A stretch of 64,000 nucleotides of DNA from Lysobacter sp. (GTDB lineage: Bacteria > Pseudomonadota > Gammaproteobacteria > Xanthomonadales > Xanthomonadaceae). The notes beneath the pieces are model-generated. The model was not told the DNA's origin. It saw nothing but the letters and a program-made list of their open reading frames with translations, and made no database searches. The stretch's first letter is position 1. Each line of letters opens with the position of its first letter. Below, piece by piece: positions 36,139-41,177 of this stretch. The position numbers and the translations under genes are program-made. The stretch covers positions 1,401 to 65,400 of the forward strand of contig JBOHYC010000155.1 in NCBI GenBank assembly GCA_050737755.1, in the 5' to 3' direction.

Positions 36139-36551
36139 CAGCGCGTGACCTCGCCGGCGACGCTGATCGACCCCTGCACCAGCGGGATGACGTATTCGGG
36201 TTCCGAGCCCGCCGGCAGGTACAGCTCCAGGCTGTAGGCCAGCTTCACCCGCTTGAGGTTGTCCGGGTTGAGCGCGACGGTGTCCGCCGCCGCTACTCGG
36301 ATCCGCAGTCGACCATCAGCCGCGGTGTCCCAGGCCAGCTTGGGCGCCTCGCCGGTTGTCAGCAGCTCCATCAGCAGCGTGTCGGTGGTCGACAGCCCGT
36401 AGGCGCCGCGCAGCGTCCGCACCTGCATGCGCGCCTCGTAGCCTGTCAGGTCGATGGGCGTGACCTCATCGTCCTCGGTGTAGGTGAACTCGTCCTCCCA
36501 CGTGGCGCCGCGGGTGACCTGCATGCTGTAGCTGGCGGGGGTTCGGCTCAC
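36138..36551 (-). CDS. BppU-N-like / fibre-attachment domain protein (137 aa)
   Basis: RGATW...PIDLTGYEARMQVR motif; GTGA coupling to the o-spanin stop. Confidence 0.65.
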   Translation of the reverse strand: MSRTPASYSMQVTRGATWEDEFTYTEDDEVTPIDLTGYEARMQVRTLRGAYGLSTTDTLLMELLTTGEAPKLAWDTAADGRLRIRVAAADTVALNPDNLKRVKLAYSLELYLPAGSEPEYVIPLVQGSISVAGEVTR

Positions 36552-36934
36552 AGCTTGATCACTCCAGCATCGTCCAGGCGCCGAAGGCACTGGTCGCAGG
36601 CCTTGCGTCGCAGCTCGCAGGTGTTGGCCACGCCGGTCAACGCAGGGATGACCTCCTCGCCCAGGGCATCCCACGCGGCCGGATCGTTAGGGTCCGCTTC
36701 CCACCGGACGCCGGGGTCACCGTCGGACGTGCACGGTAGGAAGCAGATGGGGTTGCACTGCGCCGGCACCGGCTCGGGCCGCTGCAACGGGCAGCCCGCC
36801 AGCAGCAGCGCGATCGCGATGGTCAGCAGCACGCGACAACAATTGCTACTGGAATTCGGCACTGTCGACACCGTAGGCATGACCGACTTGTCGTGCCGAC
36901 GAATCTCAGCGGCAAATGTTGTCGCGCTGCGCAT
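36548..36934 (-). CDS. Outer-membrane spanin-like lipoprotein (Rz1-like); start may be 36880
   Basis: Hydrophobic signal ending in lipobox LLAGC; Pro-rich N-terminus; several Cys; in the lysis region. Confidence 0.7.
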   Translation of the reverse strand: MRSATTFAAEIRRHDKSVMPTVSTVPNSSSNCCRVLLTIAIALLLAGCPLQRPEPVPAQCNPICFLPCTSDGDPGVRWEADPNDPAAWDALGEEVIPALTGVANTCELRRKACDQCLRRLDDAGVIKL

Positions 36935-36936
36935 GG

Positions 36937-37305
36937 TCAGGAGGCGTGGTCGATGCCGAAACGATCGATCCGCTGTTCCAGCGCGCGCAGGTACTTCCGC
37001 ATGGCGGTGAACTGCACGTGCAGAAGATCCCGTTCCGGACCTGGCAACGCCTTGAACACCGGGGTCGACGTGAAGGTCTGCAGCTTGTCGATCTTGTCGA
37101 CCAACGCCGCGGCCTCGCCGATCACGCGCTGCTGGTGCGGCGGCAGGTGCGCAACGTGGCCGATATCGACGTAGGCCGCTTCGAACGCCTCGCGCGGGCT
37201 CCAGCTCGTGTAGCCATCTGCGTACTTCACGGCGTAGCCCGGCTGGCCATCCTTCTCGGCCGGCCAGGCCGTGACGATCTTGGTGCCGATGTACTCGTGC
37301 GTCAT
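36937..37305 (-). CDS. YIGTK-domain + T4 Y16Q/crAss001_48-like (Sequestin-like) fusion protein (122 aa)
   Basis: YIGTK..GY.V.Y.DGY.SWSP...FE.AY followed by PPHQQRV..E...L..K..KL..F....F..L...E..LL..Q...M..Y...LE.RI..F. Confidence 0.75.
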   Translation of the reverse strand: MTHEYIGTKIVTAWPAEKDGQPGYAVKYADGYTSWSPREAFEAAYVDIGHVAHLPPHQQRVIGEAAALVDKIDKLQTFTSTPVFKALPGPERDLLHVQFTAMRKYLRALEQRIDRFGIDHAS

Positions 37306-37565
37306 TGACCCGTCCTCGCTGCCAACCGCTGGTCGGCTGCCCTGAAGTGCACCAACTCGAGCACGCGATCGCGCGCCTGCTCGAACGCGTACGCCTCGCC
37401 GCGGCTCTGGTTGAACTCCGTGCTGGGCGCGCACACCGACTGCCCGGTCACCGTGAAGCCGTTGTCCATCACGAGCTGGCACACCGTGGTGCGTCCGTCG
37501 GGCAGCACCACGTACTTGACGGTCTTGATGGCCGCCAGCGCGTCGTCGATGTTCGGACCGCTCAC
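37302..37565 (-). CDS. N4 Gp49/Sf6 gp66 family protein (Acb4-like sponge candidate, 87 aa)
   Basis: TTVCQLVMDNGFTVTGQSVC....FN...G...A family pattern. Confidence 0.8.
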   Translation of the reverse strand: MSGPNIDDALAAIKTVKYVVLPDGRTTVCQLVMDNGFTVTGQSVCAPSTEFNQSRGEAYAFEQARDRVLELVHFRAADQRLAARTGQ

Positions 37566-37699
37566 AGGAACACCAGCCCCAGCGCTGCCACCCCGAACGC
37601 GACGAACATCGCGGCCTTGGCCAACAGGGCGACGGTGGCGGCGATGGTGCTGTCGATGGTCGCTTCGTCGAAGCGCTCTTGCTGCTCGGAGTTCAGCAT
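37562..37699 (-). CDS. 45-aa membrane peptide
   Basis: Coupled at both ends; C-terminal hydrophobic helix. Confidence 0.55.
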   Translation of the reverse strand: MLNSEQQERFDEATIDSTIAATVALLAKAAMFVAFGVAALGLVFL

Positions 37700-37983
37700 C
37701 AGATGCGTTCCAGCAGGTCCATCAGGCGCTGGTTCAGCCCGATAGCGGCGAGGTGCCGGGACTGGATGCGGTTGCGCAGCTCGGTGCTGTACTCCGGTGC
37801 GGAGGCATCCCCCTTCAGCGTCCCCGTGCCCTGCTGGCTGACCAGCAGCTTCTCCTCCACCTGGTTCAGCAGGTCGAACGAGTGGTTCTGCGCTCGCGCC
37901 AGGTCCTCGAGCTGCGTGACGATGGGGCTCTCGGGGACCGCTGCGGCGTGGGATTGCATGTTGGCTGCGCTGACACTGTTCAC
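37699..37983 (-). CDS. Hypothetical helical protein (86-94 aa)
   Basis: GTGA overlap with the i-spanin stop; alternative ATG at 37959. Confidence 0.6.
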   Translation of the reverse strand: MNSVSAANMQSHAAAVPESPIVTQLEDLARAQNHSFDLLNQVEEKLLVSQQGTGTLKGDASAPEYSTELRNRIQSRHLAAIGLNQRLMDLLERI

Positions 37984-38351
37984 TTGCGTTGCTCCGGGTT
38001 GCGGCCACGAAGGCCCTGGTTGACTGCGTCCATACGGGCCTGACCCGGCGCGCACTGCTGTGGCAGCGGCGCAGCCTTGGCGGCCTCGCGGTAGATGACT
38101 CGGGTAGTGCGTCCGCGCTCGGCGATCGCCTGCAGGTCAGTGATCAGCTCGGCGTCGTCGCGGTTGCGGCCTTCGGCCAGCTCCGCAGCCTGCTCGATCG
38201 CGCGGACCAGCTCGCGGTTCTCGTCTCGCAGCGGCGCGGTGATCGCGCGCTTCCACTGCCAGACGTTGAGCGCGGCAAGCGCGAGGCAGACCAGCAGCAG
38301 GATCACCACCCACTGCCAGGCAGCCCACCATGCGGAGAGCTTCGCGATCAC
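37980..38351 (-). CDS. Inner-membrane spanin (Rz-like, 123 aa)
   Basis: N-terminal TM helix, periplasmic coiled coil, C-terminal Cys; downstream of the endolysin. Confidence 0.75.
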   Translation of the reverse strand: MIAKLSAWWAAWQWVVILLLVCLALAALNVWQWKRAITAPLRDENRELVRAIEQAAELAEGRNRDDAELITDLQAIAERGRTTRVIYREAAKAAPLPQQCAPGQARMDAVNQGLRGRNPEQRK

Positions 38352-38518
38352 AGCTCGCGGCCGTCGTGGTTGCCGCCCAGGCACTCGGTGATCTGCGAGC
38401 ACTCGCGCCGGCGCCGCGCCATCTCGCTGACGCTCGGTACGGCCCCGTGCTGCTCGGCGCTATCCCGCTCCGGTGGGGTGTCTACCTCGGCCTCGACGGC
38501 CTCGAGCAGCTGGTTCAC
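38348..38518 (-). CDS. Small hypothetical protein (56 aa)
   Basis: GTGA overlaps at both ends. Confidence 0.45.
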   Translation of the reverse strand: MNQLLEAVEAEVDTPPERDSAEQHGAVPSVSEMARRRRECSQITECLGGNHDGREL

Positions 38519-38640
38519 AGCAACGCTCCGACCATCGGCGTCACGAAGATCGACCACTGCTCGAACGTCGCGTAGCCCAGCACCACCAGAACGCCGGCAC
38601 CTGCCGCCAGCCCGACGGCGATCTTCTGCTTGGTGGTCAT
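38515..38640 (-). CDS. 41-aa hydrophobic microprotein (pinholin/antiholin candidate)
   Basis: MTTKQKIAVGLAAGAGVLVVLGYATFEQWSIFVTPMVGALL; ATGA overlap with the endolysin stop; below the ORF-track cutoff. Confidence 0.65.
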   Translation of the reverse strand: MTTKQKIAVGLAAGAGVLVVLGYATFEQWSIFVTPMVGALL

Positions 38641-39209
38641 CGCGGGAGCTCCCCTGTGACGCACAGCTGGTATTCGGCCTGCCGGCGATTGGCCAGGCCG
38701 CGCACGAATTTGTATTCCGGGCGGCCGTTGACCGTCCTACCGGTCTTCACGTAGCTCCAGACGGGCTTTCCCCCGTCCGACACGTAGATGCGCCTGCAGC
38801 CCAGTTGCCACTCCCCGCGGTTCCACGCCTTCATCGCCGCGCTGCCGCAGGTGGCACTGACGCCGTTGTTCCAGGCATGCGACGTGGCTGCATCGAACAC
38901 GCGCTGCGGCGGGTTGCGGTCGAAGCAACGCACCAGGTTCGTCTGGACCTTGGTCACTGCGGCGCGCTCTTCGCGCTCGCACTTCTCGGCCGACCAGGTC
39001 TCACCGACCACGATGGGCGTGGTCGTGATGTGGCGGGTCAGCCCTTTGCACACTGTCGGCAGCCCGTGGGCCAGCTTGTCGGCGTAGACGACGAACTCGC
39101 CCTCGCCTTCCCAGCGGCCCAAGAACGCCATCACCATCGCCGATGCCAGTACCAGGCCAGCGGCGACTCCAGTCGCCTTGCTCTTGCCCTTCGACCTCGC
39201 CGCGGTCAT
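38637..39209 (-). CDS. SAR-type endolysin, GH24 lysozyme (190 aa)
   Basis: N-terminal Gly/Ala-rich SAR helix; WEG..VYADKL..GLPTVC.G catalytic E/D/T region; GL.NRR..E. Confidence 0.9.
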   Translation of the reverse strand: MTAARSKGKSKATGVAAGLVLASAMVMAFLGRWEGEGEFVVYADKLAHGLPTVCKGLTRHITTTPIVVGETWSAEKCEREERAAVTKVQTNLVRCFDRNPPQRVFDAATSHAWNNGVSATCGSAAMKAWNRGEWQLGCRRIYVSDGGKPVWSYVKTGRTVNGRPEYKFVRGLANRRQAEYQLCVTGELPR

Positions 39210-39760
39210 GTCACCACCCGCCTGATCACGCCCAGCCATTGCTTCGCCGGCGGGGCTTCGGGGATCGGCGTCGCGATCGCATCGACGGTGAACTCCTCTC
39301 CGTCGGCATCGATCATCCGGTACCGCATGCTGTAGACCCGGTGCTCCTCACGGCACGAGTCCCATTCCCGTCGTACGGCCAGCCGGTCCTCCGGGTGCAG
39401 GAAGTTCACCCAGTTCCACCCCAGCAGCTCCGCCTTGCCCACGCCCAGCCAGCGGGCGTAGGTCAGGTTCGCGTACGTGTTGGCGCCGGTGGCATCGGCT
39501 TCGAACTCCGCCTGCTCGATGTTCACGTCGCCACGAGCGCGCACTTGCATTGCCAACATGCCGATCGACTTGCGGACATCCGCCACGTCAGAGCGCAGCG
39601 CCGGTACCTCAGACATGCCCTCGAACCCGGCGCGGTAAGGGGCCCACCAGCGGCGTAGCTTCTTCCTGAAGAAGAGCCACACCGCGGCGCCGGCGGATGC
39701 CAGGCTTCCGAGCAAGGTCACTGCCCCGATCGCAATGTCGATGAAGGAGGCAAGTTCCAC
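39206..39760 (-). CDS. Single-TM PAS-domain protein in the holin position (184 aa)
   Basis: TM at aa ~8-31 followed by RKKLRR; PAS motif YAN..Y.RWLG....ELLG.NW.NFLHPEDR....REW......Y...YR. Confidence 0.85.
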   Translation of the reverse strand: MELASFIDIAIGAVTLLGSLASAGAAVWLFFRKKLRRWWAPYRAGFEGMSEVPALRSDVADVRKSIGMLAMQVRARGDVNIEQAEFEADATGANTYANLTYARWLGVGKAELLGWNWVNFLHPEDRLAVRREWDSCREEHRVYSMRYRMIDADGEEFTVDAIATPIPEAPPAKQWLGVIRRVVT

Positions 39761-39777
39761 TGGATCCCCTGGGGCAG

Positions 39778-39810
39778 AAACAACGAAGCCCCGGCGCGAG
39801 CCAGGGCTTC
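39778..39810 (-). terminator. Terminator upstream of the lysis cassette (tR'-like)
   Basis: Minus strand GAAGCCCTGG..CCGGGGCTTC followed by GTTGTTT. Confidence 0.65.
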
Positions 39811-39824
39811 AGGTGATTGGTCGG

Positions 39825-39864
39825 GCCGCCCCGCTCGGAACTCCCACGAAACGAGCGGTGCGGC
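39825..39864 (-). promoter_or_regulatory. 12-bp hairpin with GGGAG in its loop (late leader)
   Basis: GCCGC-A-CCGCTCG / CGAGCGG-G-GCGGC on the minus strand. Confidence 0.5.
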
Positions 39865-39979
39865 GCCGGTTGGATCAGTGCCCTCTGCCAGCGCCACCAT
39901 CCCAGACTGATGTTCTACGGGTCACAATCGTTCCCGCGCAACTGTGGTGCTGGTGTGGATCATTTTTTCGCCAGATTCC

Positions 39980-40022
39980 TCCACATGTGGAAGGAAACCA
40001 CCTCCAAATCTCCACATGTGGA
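39980..40022. repeat. Two copies of the palindrome TCCACATGTGGA (operator-like)
   Basis: Copies at 39980-39991 and 40011-40022, 31 bp apart. Confidence 0.8.
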
Positions 40023-40149
40023 AGCGGTCACGTCATCGATTCGTTGCCCACCACGACCTCCTCGCCCGCCAAGCCGGCTTAACAATCCTTACCTCGCCAA
40101 CTCCCGCGTGTAGGGAAACCCCTGACTGCCGCAACTGAATCGTTCACCT

Positions 40150-40256
40150 AAAATCCCGCGGCCAGCAGCGATGCTTCCCCGGCATCGTGCCCCGTGTCTT
40201 CCTAGTGTTTCCCCGACACCTTCCCGGGGCCGCTGGCCTTCGTCCCTTCCGCAAGG
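40150..40256 (-). ncRNA. Candidate GGA-loop hairpin array (Csr/Rsm-site-like)
   Basis: 7 GGA in ~105 nt; two hairpins with the identical loop CGGGGAA. Confidence 0.4.
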
Positions 40257-40274
40257 CTGCAATGCGCACCGGCA

Positions 40275-41177
40275 TCAGGCCGCCTTGCGGTGCTCGTAGT
40301 ACGGGTGCTGCTTGTCGTCGAAGATTGCGTAGAGCGGCTCGAGCTCGCCCGCCTTGGGGTTGAGCCACGCGTCGACGTGTTCGGGCCTGATGTTGATGAT
40401 CGTGCGATCGTGTCCGGCCGCGGCGACTTCCGGCTCGGGCTCGTCGGTGATGGCTGCGAACGACAGCAGCTCGCCGGCGGCGCCGGTCCAACGCGACCAC
40501 AGGCACGCGATCAGCATCGGCTCGCCAGACTTCGGTGCGAACTCCAGCACCGCATTGCCATCCGGCGTCTCGACGTTCTCGTAGAAGCGGTCCGCGATCA
40601 TCAGCGCGTGCGAGTGGCTAAACAGCGGCTTCCAGAAGCCTTCCAAGCTGTCGCGCCGCGCGTTGTACGTGCCAGGGAACTTGCGGTCGTAGAACTCCGG
40701 CTTGCCGGCGGGCCGGCACTGGTAGCGCATCGGCTTGATCACCCTTCGGCCGTCCTCCCAGACCATCACCGGGGCGAACATGCCCGGGTAGATCCGCGAG
40801 TCGCGCGGCTTGTCATCGGTGCGCTTCAGGTTCGCCAGCCGGTCCTTGATCTGCTCGATCTTGTTGCCGGCAATGCGCTGGTCGTTCTCCGCCTTCTTCG
40901 TGACCTTGGTCTGCAGCGCGCGCTCGGCATCGGCGAGGCGCTTCTTCTGCTTGAACAGCTCCTGCTCGAGGCCTGCGATCTCGGCGCCGTGGATCTCCCG
41001 TACCAGGTCCGCGATCGCGCCGCCCTTGAATGCCACGTCCATGGCCTTCGGGGTTTTCAGCTTGTCGCCCTGGCGCTTCTTGACGTACAGCTCATGGAAC
41101 ACCGCGATGTCGATGTCGGCGCCGTAGTGGCGCACATACTTCTCGTAGTCCGCCCAGACCTGAGCCGAATAGCACAT
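40275..41177 (-). CDS. SOS response-associated peptidase (SRAP/YedK/HMCES family, 300 aa)
   Basis: N-terminal MCY (Cys2), TYNARRDSL, FYE, GHDR. Confidence 0.9.
   Translation of the reverse strand: MCYSAQVWADYEKYVRHYGADIDIAVFHELYVKKRQGDKLKTPKAMDVAFKGGAIADLVREIHGAEIAGLEQELFKQKKRLADAERALQTKVTKKAENDQRIAGNKIEQIKDRLANLKRTDDKPRDSRIYPGMFAPVMVWEDGRRVIKPMRYQCRPAGKPEFYDRKFPGTYNARRDSLEGFWKPLFSHSHALMIADRFYENVETPDGNAVLEFAPKSGEPMLIACLWSRWTGAAGELLSFAAITDEPEPEVAAAGHDRTIINIRPEHVDAWLNPKAGELEPLYAIFDDKQHPYYEHRKAA

What the first reader, a model, noticed from the sequence alone, without database searches (positions are those of the whole stretch)
39206..39760. PAS-domain membrane protein in the holin slot: a possible sensor-gated lysis timer
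Seen: the first late gene after the terminator, ATGA-coupled to the endolysin, encodes one TM helix, a basic stop-transfer patch (PAS predicted cytoplasmic) and a clear PAS domain with no kinase or other output domain. No canonical holin is present upstream of the endolysin. Established: PAS domains sense ligands, redox or light, and the T4 holin T is a single-TM holin with a soluble GAF-like regulatory domain. Inference: lysis timing here may be tied directly to a cytoplasmic signal.
Basis: partly seen in the sequence, partly recalled or inferred. Interest (0 to 1): 0.8.

Follow-up and report, generated by a model that had tools for sequence, protein, structure and literature searches.

The report
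Membrane-anchored PAS protein partnering SAR endolysins
A prophage gene for a membrane-tethered, cytoplasm-facing PAS (sensor-type) domain sits directly in front of, and overlaps, the gene for a membrane-tethered lysozyme. Its relatives hold that place in about 30 otherwise unrelated uncultured phages, so it is probably an undescribed part of the machinery that decides when the host cell bursts.

Summary
ORF 39206-39760 (-) encodes 184 aa: an 8-residue acidic N-tail, one TMD, an RKKLRR junction and a PAS_3 domain (E 1.7e-14; AF2 pLDDT 90), with no output domain. It follows a terminator-like hairpin and overlaps the next gene by ATGA.

Of 36 loci from different phage backbones, 32 place a family member directly in front of a SAR-type lysozyme. 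These lysozymes have unusually basic N-tails (median 4 K/R), and the only other membrane proteins found nearby in my scan were spanins. In three divergent loci the protein sits beside a separate holin-like protein and a non-SAR endolysin.

So it is almost certainly a lysis-cassette protein, but not a canonical large-hole holin. Its topology is the reverse of T4 holin T and the same as the Mu releasin gp25. My reading:
- Releasin-like activator or regulator acting from the cytoplasmic side: about 0.4.
- Single-TMD pinholin: about 0.3.

Signal sensing by the PAS domain is untested. The family has no PHROG match, no match in 50,697 GenBank phage records, and no paper that I could find.

The parts
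39784..39811 (-). Terminator-like hairpin with a T-rich tail, 24 nt upstream of the TM-PAS start. It marks the head of the late (lysis plus structural) operon.
   Evidence: 12 pairs, 8 of them G-C, tail TTGTTTCTGC. A consensus match only; function not shown.
39206..39760 (-). TM-PAS gene, 184 aa, GTG start with an AGGGGA Shine-Dalgarno. The stop overlaps the endolysin ATG (ATGA).
39668..39736 (-). Single transmembrane helix (aa 9-31, IAIGAVTLLGSLASAGAAVWLFF). It carries a conserved stripe of small residues on one face.
   Evidence: positions 12, 15, 18, 21-22 and 25-26 are 85-100% Gly/Ala/Ser/Thr in 49 subfamily members.
39629..39667 (-). Basic, aromatic juxtamembrane junction (aa 32-44, RKKLRRWWAPYRA). 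It sets the N-out/C-in topology.
   Evidence: junction charge +6 here, family mean +4.4. (R32, W38 nearly invariant).
39218..39514 (-). PAS core (aa 83-181), predicted cytoplasmic. No domain follows it.
38637..39209 (-). SAR-type endolysin, 190 aa. N-tail MTAARSKGKSK (4 basic residues), then a 20-aa uncharged Gly/Ala-rich segment, then the catalytic WEG.
   Evidence: PF00959, E 5.6e-13; phrog_7 endolysin, E 9e-28.
38515..38640 (-). 41-aa membrane ORF (MTTKQKIAVGLAAGAGVLVVLGYATFEQWSIFVTPMVGALL). Its ATG overlaps the endolysin stop (ATGA). Possible extra lysis peptide; not found in relatives.
   Evidence: (GC3 0.84, coding-like). (start context). (no family hit).
37980..38402 (-). i-spanin (Rz-like). 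N-terminal TMD; the C-terminal part is conserved in L060 and L028.
   Evidence: (phrog_89, weak).
37562..37699 (-). 45-aa tail-anchored membrane ORF, conserved in L060. In the last 25 codons there are 7 synonymous and 2 non-synonymous differences.
36548..36934 (-). Lipoprotein (lipobox LLAGC), the probable o-spanin. Its homologue in L028 lies directly after the i-spanin. Here about 1 kb of inserted genes separates it from the i-spanin. The true start is probably internal to this ORF.
   Evidence: (the L028 homologue hits phrog_11951, Rz-like spanin).

Best explanation
The gene encodes a lysis-cassette protein that fills the holin slot of a SAR-endolysin cassette, but it is not a hole-forming holin of the classical kind.

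The protein inserts N-out/C-in. Only about 8 acidic residues face the periplasm. It has one TMD with a face of small residues suited to helix-helix packing, a strongly basic junction, and a folded, probably dimeric, PAS domain in the cytoplasm.

Proposed mechanism (inferred, not shown): like the Mu releasin gp25, it acts from the cytoplasmic side on the membrane-embedded SAR segment and the unusually basic cytoplasmic N-tail of the endolysin. It lets the segment leave the bilayer so that the lysozyme refolds and becomes active. The spanins then finish lysis.

The PAS domain would either read a cytoplasmic cue, such as redox state, energy state or a metabolite, and pass it through the two long helices to the TMD. 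Or it would simply provide dimerisation and a binding surface.

What is shown: the anatomy, the predicted topology, the PAS fold, the translational overlap and the conserved pairing with SAR endolysins. What is inferred: a role in lysis (about 0.85), the releasin-like mode of action (about 0.4, which is the confidence given for this explanation), and signal sensing (about 0.3).
For: - Pairing. 32 of 36 loci with enough downstream sequence have a PF00959 lysozyme. In the 30 I measured, its start lies from 34 nt before to 3 nt after the TM-PAS stop (most overlap it). The backbones include HK97-like, lambda-like (GpA/portal_2) and P22-portal/SU10-adaptor types, plus a giant-protein prophage of Lysobacter olei and integrase prophages.
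- Partner type. In 30 partner lysozymes the N-terminus is a basic tail (median 4 K/R, at least 3 in 25 of 30) followed by an 18-22-residue uncharged segment (Gly/Ala/Ser/Thr fraction 0.43) that abuts the catalytic Glu. In Mu, basic residues K6 and K7 are what make the SAR endolysin depend on the releasin.
- Module shuffling. The lysozyme catalytic domains are swapped between close TM-PAS relatives. The window and L060 share 82% TM-PAS identity but their lysozymes have no nucleotide match. The SAR architecture is nevertheless kept.
- No other holin candidate. In my hydropathy/GC3 ORF scan the only other membrane proteins found in most cassettes were spanins.
- Architecture. It matches Mu gp25 as described: N-out/C-in, a few periplasmic residues, an RR/RK junction and a mildly acidic cytoplasmic domain.
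- The TMD is not a mere anchor. It has a periodic small-residue stripe that is 85-100% conserved.
- Family distribution. The family is restricted to phages and prophages: 19 IMG/VR loci, one true member among 185,579 species genomes, and 3 of 401 genomes of the host family.
- Not a known defence protein. It matches no PADLOC defence family.
Against: - It has no sequence relationship to DUF2730, the releasin family (no Pfam hit at E<0.1).
- The gene lies upstream of the endolysin, whereas the Mu releasin lies downstream.
- Mu gp22, despite its basic tail, can still be released by a pinholin. So a basic tail does not exclude a pinholin partner.
- Three divergent members sit beside non-SAR endolysins, where there is no SAR segment to release (L028, L074, L150).
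- This window has two extra small membrane ORFs that could themselves be the trigger.
- The releasin mechanism is itself unresolved.
- Nothing here is experimental.
Confidence: 0.4

Rival explanations
1. It is a single-TMD pinholin. Oligomers of the TMD form small channels that collapse the proton motive force. That collapse releases the SAR endolysin, and it would also trigger any co-resident holin. The cytoplasmic PAS domain controls when oligomerisation happens.
For: - It holds the holin slot and is translationally coupled to a SAR endolysin, as in phage 21 S21-R21.
- Most phages with SAR endolysins encode a pinholin (statement in PMC9239132).
- It has a conserved small-residue, glycine-zipper-like stripe with Thr/Ser on one TMD face.
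- N4 gp63 is a reported single-TMD pinholin with a cytoplasmic domain.
- Depolarisation is a universal trigger, which would also explain the three loci where the protein co-occurs with another holin-like protein.
Against: - It has only one TMD with few polar residues.
- A 150-residue folded cytoplasmic domain is unlike known pinholins.
- It matches no holin family in Pfam or PHROGs.
- No dual-start motif is conserved across the family.
Confidence: 0.3
2. It is a negative regulator of antiholin type. Its TMD holds the SAR segment, or a holin TMD, in the bilayer and delays lysis until the PAS domain receives a cytoplasmic signal.
For: - It has a conserved TMD packing face.
- It occurs beside different kinds of membrane lysis effectors: SAR endolysins, 3-TMD proteins and a 1-TMD peptide.
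- PAS domains commonly act as switches (established knowledge).
Against: - The partner SAR endolysins already carry strongly basic N-tails. In Mu such tails lock the segment in the membrane, so an activator is needed more than a brake.
- Most cassettes would then have no positive trigger at all.
Confidence: 0.12
3. It is a canonical large-hole holin of the T4 T kind, with a soluble regulatory domain.
For: - It has a single TMD, and at 184-219 aa the family is close in length to T4 T, which I recall as about 218 aa (not checked here).
- It sits directly upstream of the endolysin.
- One member (L074) lies near a soluble M15-type endolysin.
Against: - 32 of 36 partners are self-exporting SAR endolysins.
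- In L074 a separate small TMD ORF sits between it and the soluble endolysin.
- Its topology is opposite to that of T4 T.
- No Phage_holin family matches it.
Confidence: 0.03
4. It is not a lysis protein. It is a passenger (moron) or signalling gene, for example a host-interference or superinfection-related sensor, that merely travels with endolysin genes.
For: - It has no family annotation.
- The PAS domain resembles PAS repeats of bacterial multi-PAS kinases.
- One locus (L022) has it without an adjacent endolysin.
Against: - The start/stop overlap with the endolysin is maintained across backbones even though the lysozyme catalytic domains differ between loci.
- The exceptions L028, L074 and L150 are still inside lysis cassettes.
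- It matches no PADLOC family.
Confidence: 0.1

Closest known systems
Phage Mu releasin gp25 (DUF2730; Chamblee et al. 2022, PMC9239132)
   Same: - It is a membrane-tethered cytoplasmic protein with N-out/C-in topology and only a few periplasmic residues.
- It has an Arg/Lys motif at the TMD-cytoplasm junction and a mildly acidic cytoplasmic domain.
- It works with a SAR endolysin whose cytoplasmic N-tail is unusually basic, in a cassette without a recognisable holin.
- Relatives of both families also occur beside non-SAR endolysins.
   Different: - There is no detectable sequence similarity.
- The cytoplasmic domain here is a 100-residue PAS fold plus two long helices, about 150 aa in all, against 73 aa in gp25.
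- The gene lies upstream of the endolysin and overlaps it, rather than a few genes downstream.
- It is found in non-Mu backbones.
- Function is untested.
Pinholins: phage 21 S21 68, and N4 gp63 (bioRxiv 10.1101/2025.11.12.688109)
   Same: - It sits in front of a SAR endolysin.
- Its TMD is rich in small residues.
- N4 gp63 shows that one TMD plus a cytoplasmic domain can make a pinholin.
   Different: - S21 68 has two TMDs and is 68 aa.
- N4 gp63 is anchored at its C-terminus.
- Neither has a folded sensor-type domain.
- There is no homology to either.
T4 holin T (with antiholin RI)
   Same: It has a single TMD plus a large folded soluble domain that, in T4, receives a regulatory input. The length is similar.
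   Different: - T has the opposite topology: N-in, with the soluble domain in the periplasm.
- T serves a soluble endolysin through large holes.
- There is no homology.
- The PAS fold here is cytoplasmic.
Membrane-anchored cytoplasmic PAS sensors of bacteria (for example the Aer energy-taxis receptor, and PAS-only modules of sensor kinases)
   Same: It has a cytoplasmic PAS fold held at the inner membrane, and the PAS_3 HPDD-type motif is present.
   Different: - It has no HAMP, kinase, GGDEF or other output domain.
- No cofactor signature was identified.
- It is encoded in phage lysis cassettes.

Membership tests
PAS domain (Pfam PF08447 PAS_3 / TIGR00229) | Profile match above the curated cut-off | tested here: met
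   PF08447: 54.3 bits against a cut-off of 25.6, E 1.7e-14. TIGR00229: 41.5 bits against 22.9.
PAS domain (Pfam PF08447 PAS_3 / TIGR00229) | Five-stranded antiparallel sheet flanked by short helices (the PAS fold) | tested here: met
   The AF2 model has pLDDT 90, with strands at 83-89, 94-97, 143-150, 156-166 and 174-181 and helices between them. Foldseek top hits are all PAS/LOV/ARNT domains, with target-normalised TM-scores up to 0.86.
PAS domain (Pfam PF08447 PAS_3 / TIGR00229) | Bound cofactor or ligand (not required for membership, but needed for the 'sensor' claim) | not testable with these tools
   No LOV GxNCRFLQ motif is present. His140 in the F-alpha helix is not invariant, while Cys136 is at least 90% conserved. 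The nearest solved sequences give no clue to a ligand.
Canonical holin | Small membrane protein with at least one TMD, encoded next to the endolysin | tested here: met
Canonical holin | Serves a soluble cytoplasmic endolysin that needs a large hole | tested here: not met
   32 of 36 partners are SAR-type and export themselves.
Canonical holin | Lethal hole formation that can be triggered early by depolarisation | not testable with these tools
   This needs expression with DNP/CCCP assays.
Pinholin (S21 type) | Two TMDs, the first being a SAR-like segment that leaves the membrane; homology to S21 | tested here: not met
   It has one TMD only. No holin family is hit in Pfam or PHROGs.
Pinholin (S21 type) | Genetic pairing with a SAR endolysin | tested here: met
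Mu releasin (DUF2730) | Match to the DUF2730 profile | tested here: not met
   The Pfam scan at E up to 0.1 lists only PAS families.
Mu releasin (DUF2730) | N-out/C-in single TMD, minimal periplasmic part, basic junction, cytoplasmic domain | tested here: met
   By the positive-inside rule on 70 members: the N-tail has net charge about -1 to -2, the junction has mean charge +4.4, and the rest has mean charge -2.5. Topology is predicted, not measured.
Mu releasin (DUF2730) | Partner SAR endolysin with several basic residues in its cytoplasmic N-tail; no holin in the cassette | tested here: met
   The median is 4 K/R, with at least 3 in 25 of 30 partners. In my ORF scan the only other membrane ORFs found in most cassettes were spanins.
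Mu releasin (DUF2730) | Required for release of the SAR endolysin without depolarising the membrane | not testable with these tools
   An experiment is needed.
T4 holin T | N-in/C-out topology with a periplasmic regulatory domain; homology to T | tested here: not met
   The predicted topology is opposite, and no Phage_holin_T hit was found.

The most novel reading that the evidence does not exclude
Phages of Lysobacteraceae-type hosts and many uncultured phages time lysis with a sensor. A PAS domain tethered to the inner face of the membrane would read a cytoplasmic cue, such as redox or energy state or a small molecule. Through its own transmembrane helix it would then directly trigger release of the SAR endolysin. 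This would be the first lysis trigger with a bona fide signal-sensing domain. It would make the infected cell's physiological state, rather than holin concentration alone, the lysis clock.
Probability: 0.3. Interest if true: 0.88.

Novelty: new variant of a known kind. Interest (0 to 1): 0.72.

Why it matters
Lysis timing sets burst size and phage fitness. In the known systems it is set by holin accumulation, in T4 by a periplasmic antiholin, or in Mu by a releasin of unknown mechanism. A conserved lysis-cassette protein built around a PAS domain would offer three things:
- A possible route by which cytoplasmic physiology feeds into the lysis decision.
- A second, structurally tractable family for studying how SAR endolysins are freed from the membrane without a classical holin.
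- A compact, potentially ligand-controllable lysis switch for synthetic biology.

The family is unannotated. It has no PHROG match and no match in 50,697 GenBank phage records, so today's annotation pipelines would report these cassettes as holin-less.

Tried and rejected
- GenBank phages. tblastn of three divergent family members against 50,697 phage records found nothing. blastn of the 6-kb region gave only short hits to neighbouring genes.
- Family libraries. PHROGs, PADLOC and NCBIfam give no family beyond 'PAS'.
- Literature. Searches for PAS with holin, endolysin or lysis cassette found nothing relevant.
- Collection scans. The genome and metagenome scans mostly returned unrelated PAS domains of sensor kinases. 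Only 1 of 31 genome loci and about 9 of 80 metagenome loci are true family members.
- N4-like phage. I first suspected this because of the 3598-aa ORF and a gp49-family gene. I rejected it because the structural module is of the P22-portal/SU10-adaptor/Phage_capsid_3 type.
- Complete free phage. Rejected: the contig's right end carries a host HAMP-repeat gene and there is no terminal overlap, so this is a prophage.
- LOV or heme sensor. Rejected as unsupported. The flavin Cys motif is absent and the F-alpha His is not invariant.
- The 3-TMD protein and lipobox protein of L028 as a known holin and endolysin. There are no family hits, but there is a weak PF00959 match to the lipobox protein.
- Complex prediction. 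A TM-PAS/endolysin complex model could not be made, because only single chains can be folded here.

Full report
**1. The observation**

ORF 39206-39760 on the minus strand is real and matches the description. It is 184 aa long, with a GTG start 6 nt after AGGGGA.

- Pfam gives PAS_3 at E 1.7e-14 (54.3 bits, cut-off 25.6) over residues 95-177, with weaker PAS, PAS_4 and PAS_9 matches. NCBIfam gives only the generic sensory_box domain.
- An AlphaFold2 model built on 42 homologues has mean pLDDT 90. It shows one long helix at 3-49 (TMD plus junction), a second helix at 52-79, and a canonical PAS core at 83-181. The protein ends three residues later, so it has no output domain.
- Foldseek finds only PAS, LOV and ARNT-type domains in the PDB.
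- The hydrophobic segment (aa 9-31) is preceded by the acidic tail MELASFID and followed by RKKLRRWWAPYR. By the positive-inside rule the PAS domain is cytoplasmic.
- The stop codon overlaps the ATG of a PF00959 lysozyme gene (ATGA).
- A terminator-like hairpin lies 24 nt upstream of the start.
- Downstream on the same strand lie the terminase, a P22-type portal, the capsid, an SU10-type adaptor and a 3598-aa virion protein. The gene therefore heads the late operon.
- The contig is 67.8 kb, in a 3.2-Mb MAG, and ends in a host HAMP-repeat gene. The element is therefore a prophage.

**2.

The endolysin is of the signal-anchor-release (SAR) kind. Its N-tail is MTAARSKGKSK with four basic residues. 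A 20-residue uncharged segment follows (55% Gly/Ala/Ser/Thr) and runs straight into the catalytic WEG.

The cassette also holds:
- A 41-aa membrane ORF, ATGA-coupled to the endolysin stop (38515-38640).
- An Rz-like i-spanin (37980-38402).
- A 45-aa tail-anchored ORF (37562-37699). It is conserved in the related contig L060, with mostly synonymous changes in its membrane segment.
- About 1 kb further on, a lipoprotein (36548-36934). Its homologue in L028 directly follows the i-spanin, so it is the probable o-spanin.

**3. The family and its neighbours**

A word-index search found 77 clusters at 35-82% identity and 180-219 aa, all with the same architecture. An exhaustive profile search found 95 representatives at E<1e-30. 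About half are short full-length relatives; the rest are multi-PAS kinases that match only in the PAS domain.

The family is rare and tied to phages:
- 19 loci in IMG/VR.
- One true member among 185,579 species genomes.
- 3 of 401 genomes of the host family.
- No hit in 50,697 GenBank phage records for three divergent members.
- No PHROG match.
- BFVD holds two or three similar 'PAS domain [uncultured Caudovirales phage]' models.

I collected 36 loci with at least about 450 nt downstream of the gene.

- In 32 of them the next gene is a PF00959 lysozyme. In the 30 I measured, its start lies from 34 nt before to 3 nt after the TM-PAS stop, and most overlap it.
- The backbones differ widely: HK97-like, lambda-like and P22-portal/SU10-adaptor podophage types, a giant-protein prophage in Lysobacter olei, and integrase prophages.
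- The lysozyme catalytic domains also differ. They are swapped even between TM-PAS proteins that are 82% identical.
- All 30 partners examined keep the SAR layout. The N-tail has a median of 4 basic residues, with at least 3 in 25 of 30.
- My hydropathy/GC3 ORF scan of these loci found no membrane ORFs in most cassettes other than TM-PAS, the endolysin and the spanins.

There are four exceptions:
- L022 is a 57%-complete fragment with no adjacent endolysin.
- L028 has the order 3-TMD protein, lipobox lysozyme-like protein, i-spanin, o-spanin, TM-PAS.
- L150 has TM-PAS, then a 3-TMD protein, then a lipobox protein.
- L074 has TM-PAS, then a roughly 44-aa single-TMD ORF, then a soluble M15-type peptidase.

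**4. Interpretation**

The pairing makes a role in lysis very likely (about 0.85). A canonical large-hole holin is unlikely for two reasons. The usual partners export themselves, and where the partner is not SAR-type a separate holin-like protein is present.

The T4 T analogy fails on topology. I also could not confirm that T is 'GAF-like'.

Two mechanisms remain: a pinholin, or a Mu-releasin-like activator or regulator.

The architecture is that of Mu gp25 as published. That protein is N-out/C-in, has four periplasmic residues and an RR/RK junction, and carries a cytoplasmic domain. It is needed by a SAR endolysin whose basic residues K6 and K7 lock it in the membrane, and relatives of its family are also found with cytoplasmic endolysins.

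Several points favour a pinholin instead:
- Most SAR-endolysin phages use pinholins.
- Mu gp22 can also be released by a pinholin.
- N4 gp63 shows that a single TMD with a cytoplasmic domain can be a pinholin.

The TMD carries a strictly periodic stripe of small residues at positions 12, 15, 18, 21-22 and 25-26, which are 85-100% Gly/Ala/Ser/Thr. This indicates specific helix-helix packing, which fits either model.

I weigh the options as follows:
- Releasin-like action: about 0.4.
- Pinholin: about 0.3.
- Negative regulator: about 0.12.
- No lysis role: about 0.1.
- Canonical holin: about 0.03.

Whether the PAS domain senses anything is open. No cofactor motif was found. However, the C-alpha to E-alpha region (YARWLGVGKAELLGW) is far more conserved than a bare scaffold would need to be.

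**5. Novelty**

I found no paper linking PAS domains with holins, endolysins or lysis cassettes. I did not test it. It is a lead suggesting a broader class, not independent evidence.

I rate the finding a new variant of a known kind, namely lysis-control membrane proteins. The features that are new are the sensor-type domain and the undescribed family.

Noticed in passing
window 38515-38640 (-): A 41-aa membrane ORF whose ATG overlaps the SAR endolysin stop (ATGA), with GC3 of 0.84. It lies between the endolysin and the i-spanin. It is absent from the close relative L060 and has no family hit. Earlier notes from this scan describe a similarly placed 34-36-aa peptide in Mu-like releasin cassettes.
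   Followed up: partly
window 37562-37699 (-); L060 2431-2556: A 45-aa tail-anchored membrane ORF after the i-spanin. It is conserved in L060 (41 aa), with 7 synonymous and 2 non-synonymous differences in the last 25 codons. It is probably a real small membrane protein of the cassette and an alternative trigger candidate.
   Followed up: partly
window 36548-37565 (-): The probable o-spanin (lipobox LLAGC, 36548-36934) is separated from the i-spanin by inserted genes, including a Gp49/gp66-family gene (37302-37565) and a crAss001_48-related gene (36937-37482). In L028 the homologous lipoprotein directly follows the i-spanin.
   Followed up: partly
L028 1977-4384; L150 1405-3186: An alternative cassette type: a 117-121-aa protein with about 3 TMDs, then a 262-297-aa protein with a lipoprotein signal (weak PF00959 match in L028), with the TM-PAS gene either last (L028) or first (L150). 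Neither the 3-TMD nor the lipobox protein of L028 has a Pfam or PHROG family; those of L150 were not scanned.
   Followed up: partly
L074 3477-4629: A divergent TM-PAS is followed by a roughly 44-aa single-TMD ORF with a charged C-terminus, then a soluble M15-type peptidase lacking any N-terminal membrane segment. This is the only case seen with a non-exported endolysin.
   Followed up: partly
window 40275-41177 (-): A 300-aa protein starting with MC and carrying a SRAP (SOS-response-associated peptidase) domain at residues 107-285. It is the last gene before the 515-nt spacer and hairpin that precede the lysis genes. The roughly 100-aa N-terminal extension is unexplained.
   Followed up: no
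window 39761-40274: A 515-nt non-coding spacer with a terminator-like hairpin immediately before the lysis genes. This recalls the lambdoid pR'-tR' arrangement read through by a Q-type antiterminator. No sigma-70-like promoter was found by the simple scan.
   Followed up: no
G000 contig C155, 65300-67791 (beyond the window): The contig's right end encodes a long HAMP-repeat protein typical of bacterial chromosomes, and there is no overlap between the contig ends. The element is therefore an integrated prophage rather than a free phage genome.
   Followed up: yes
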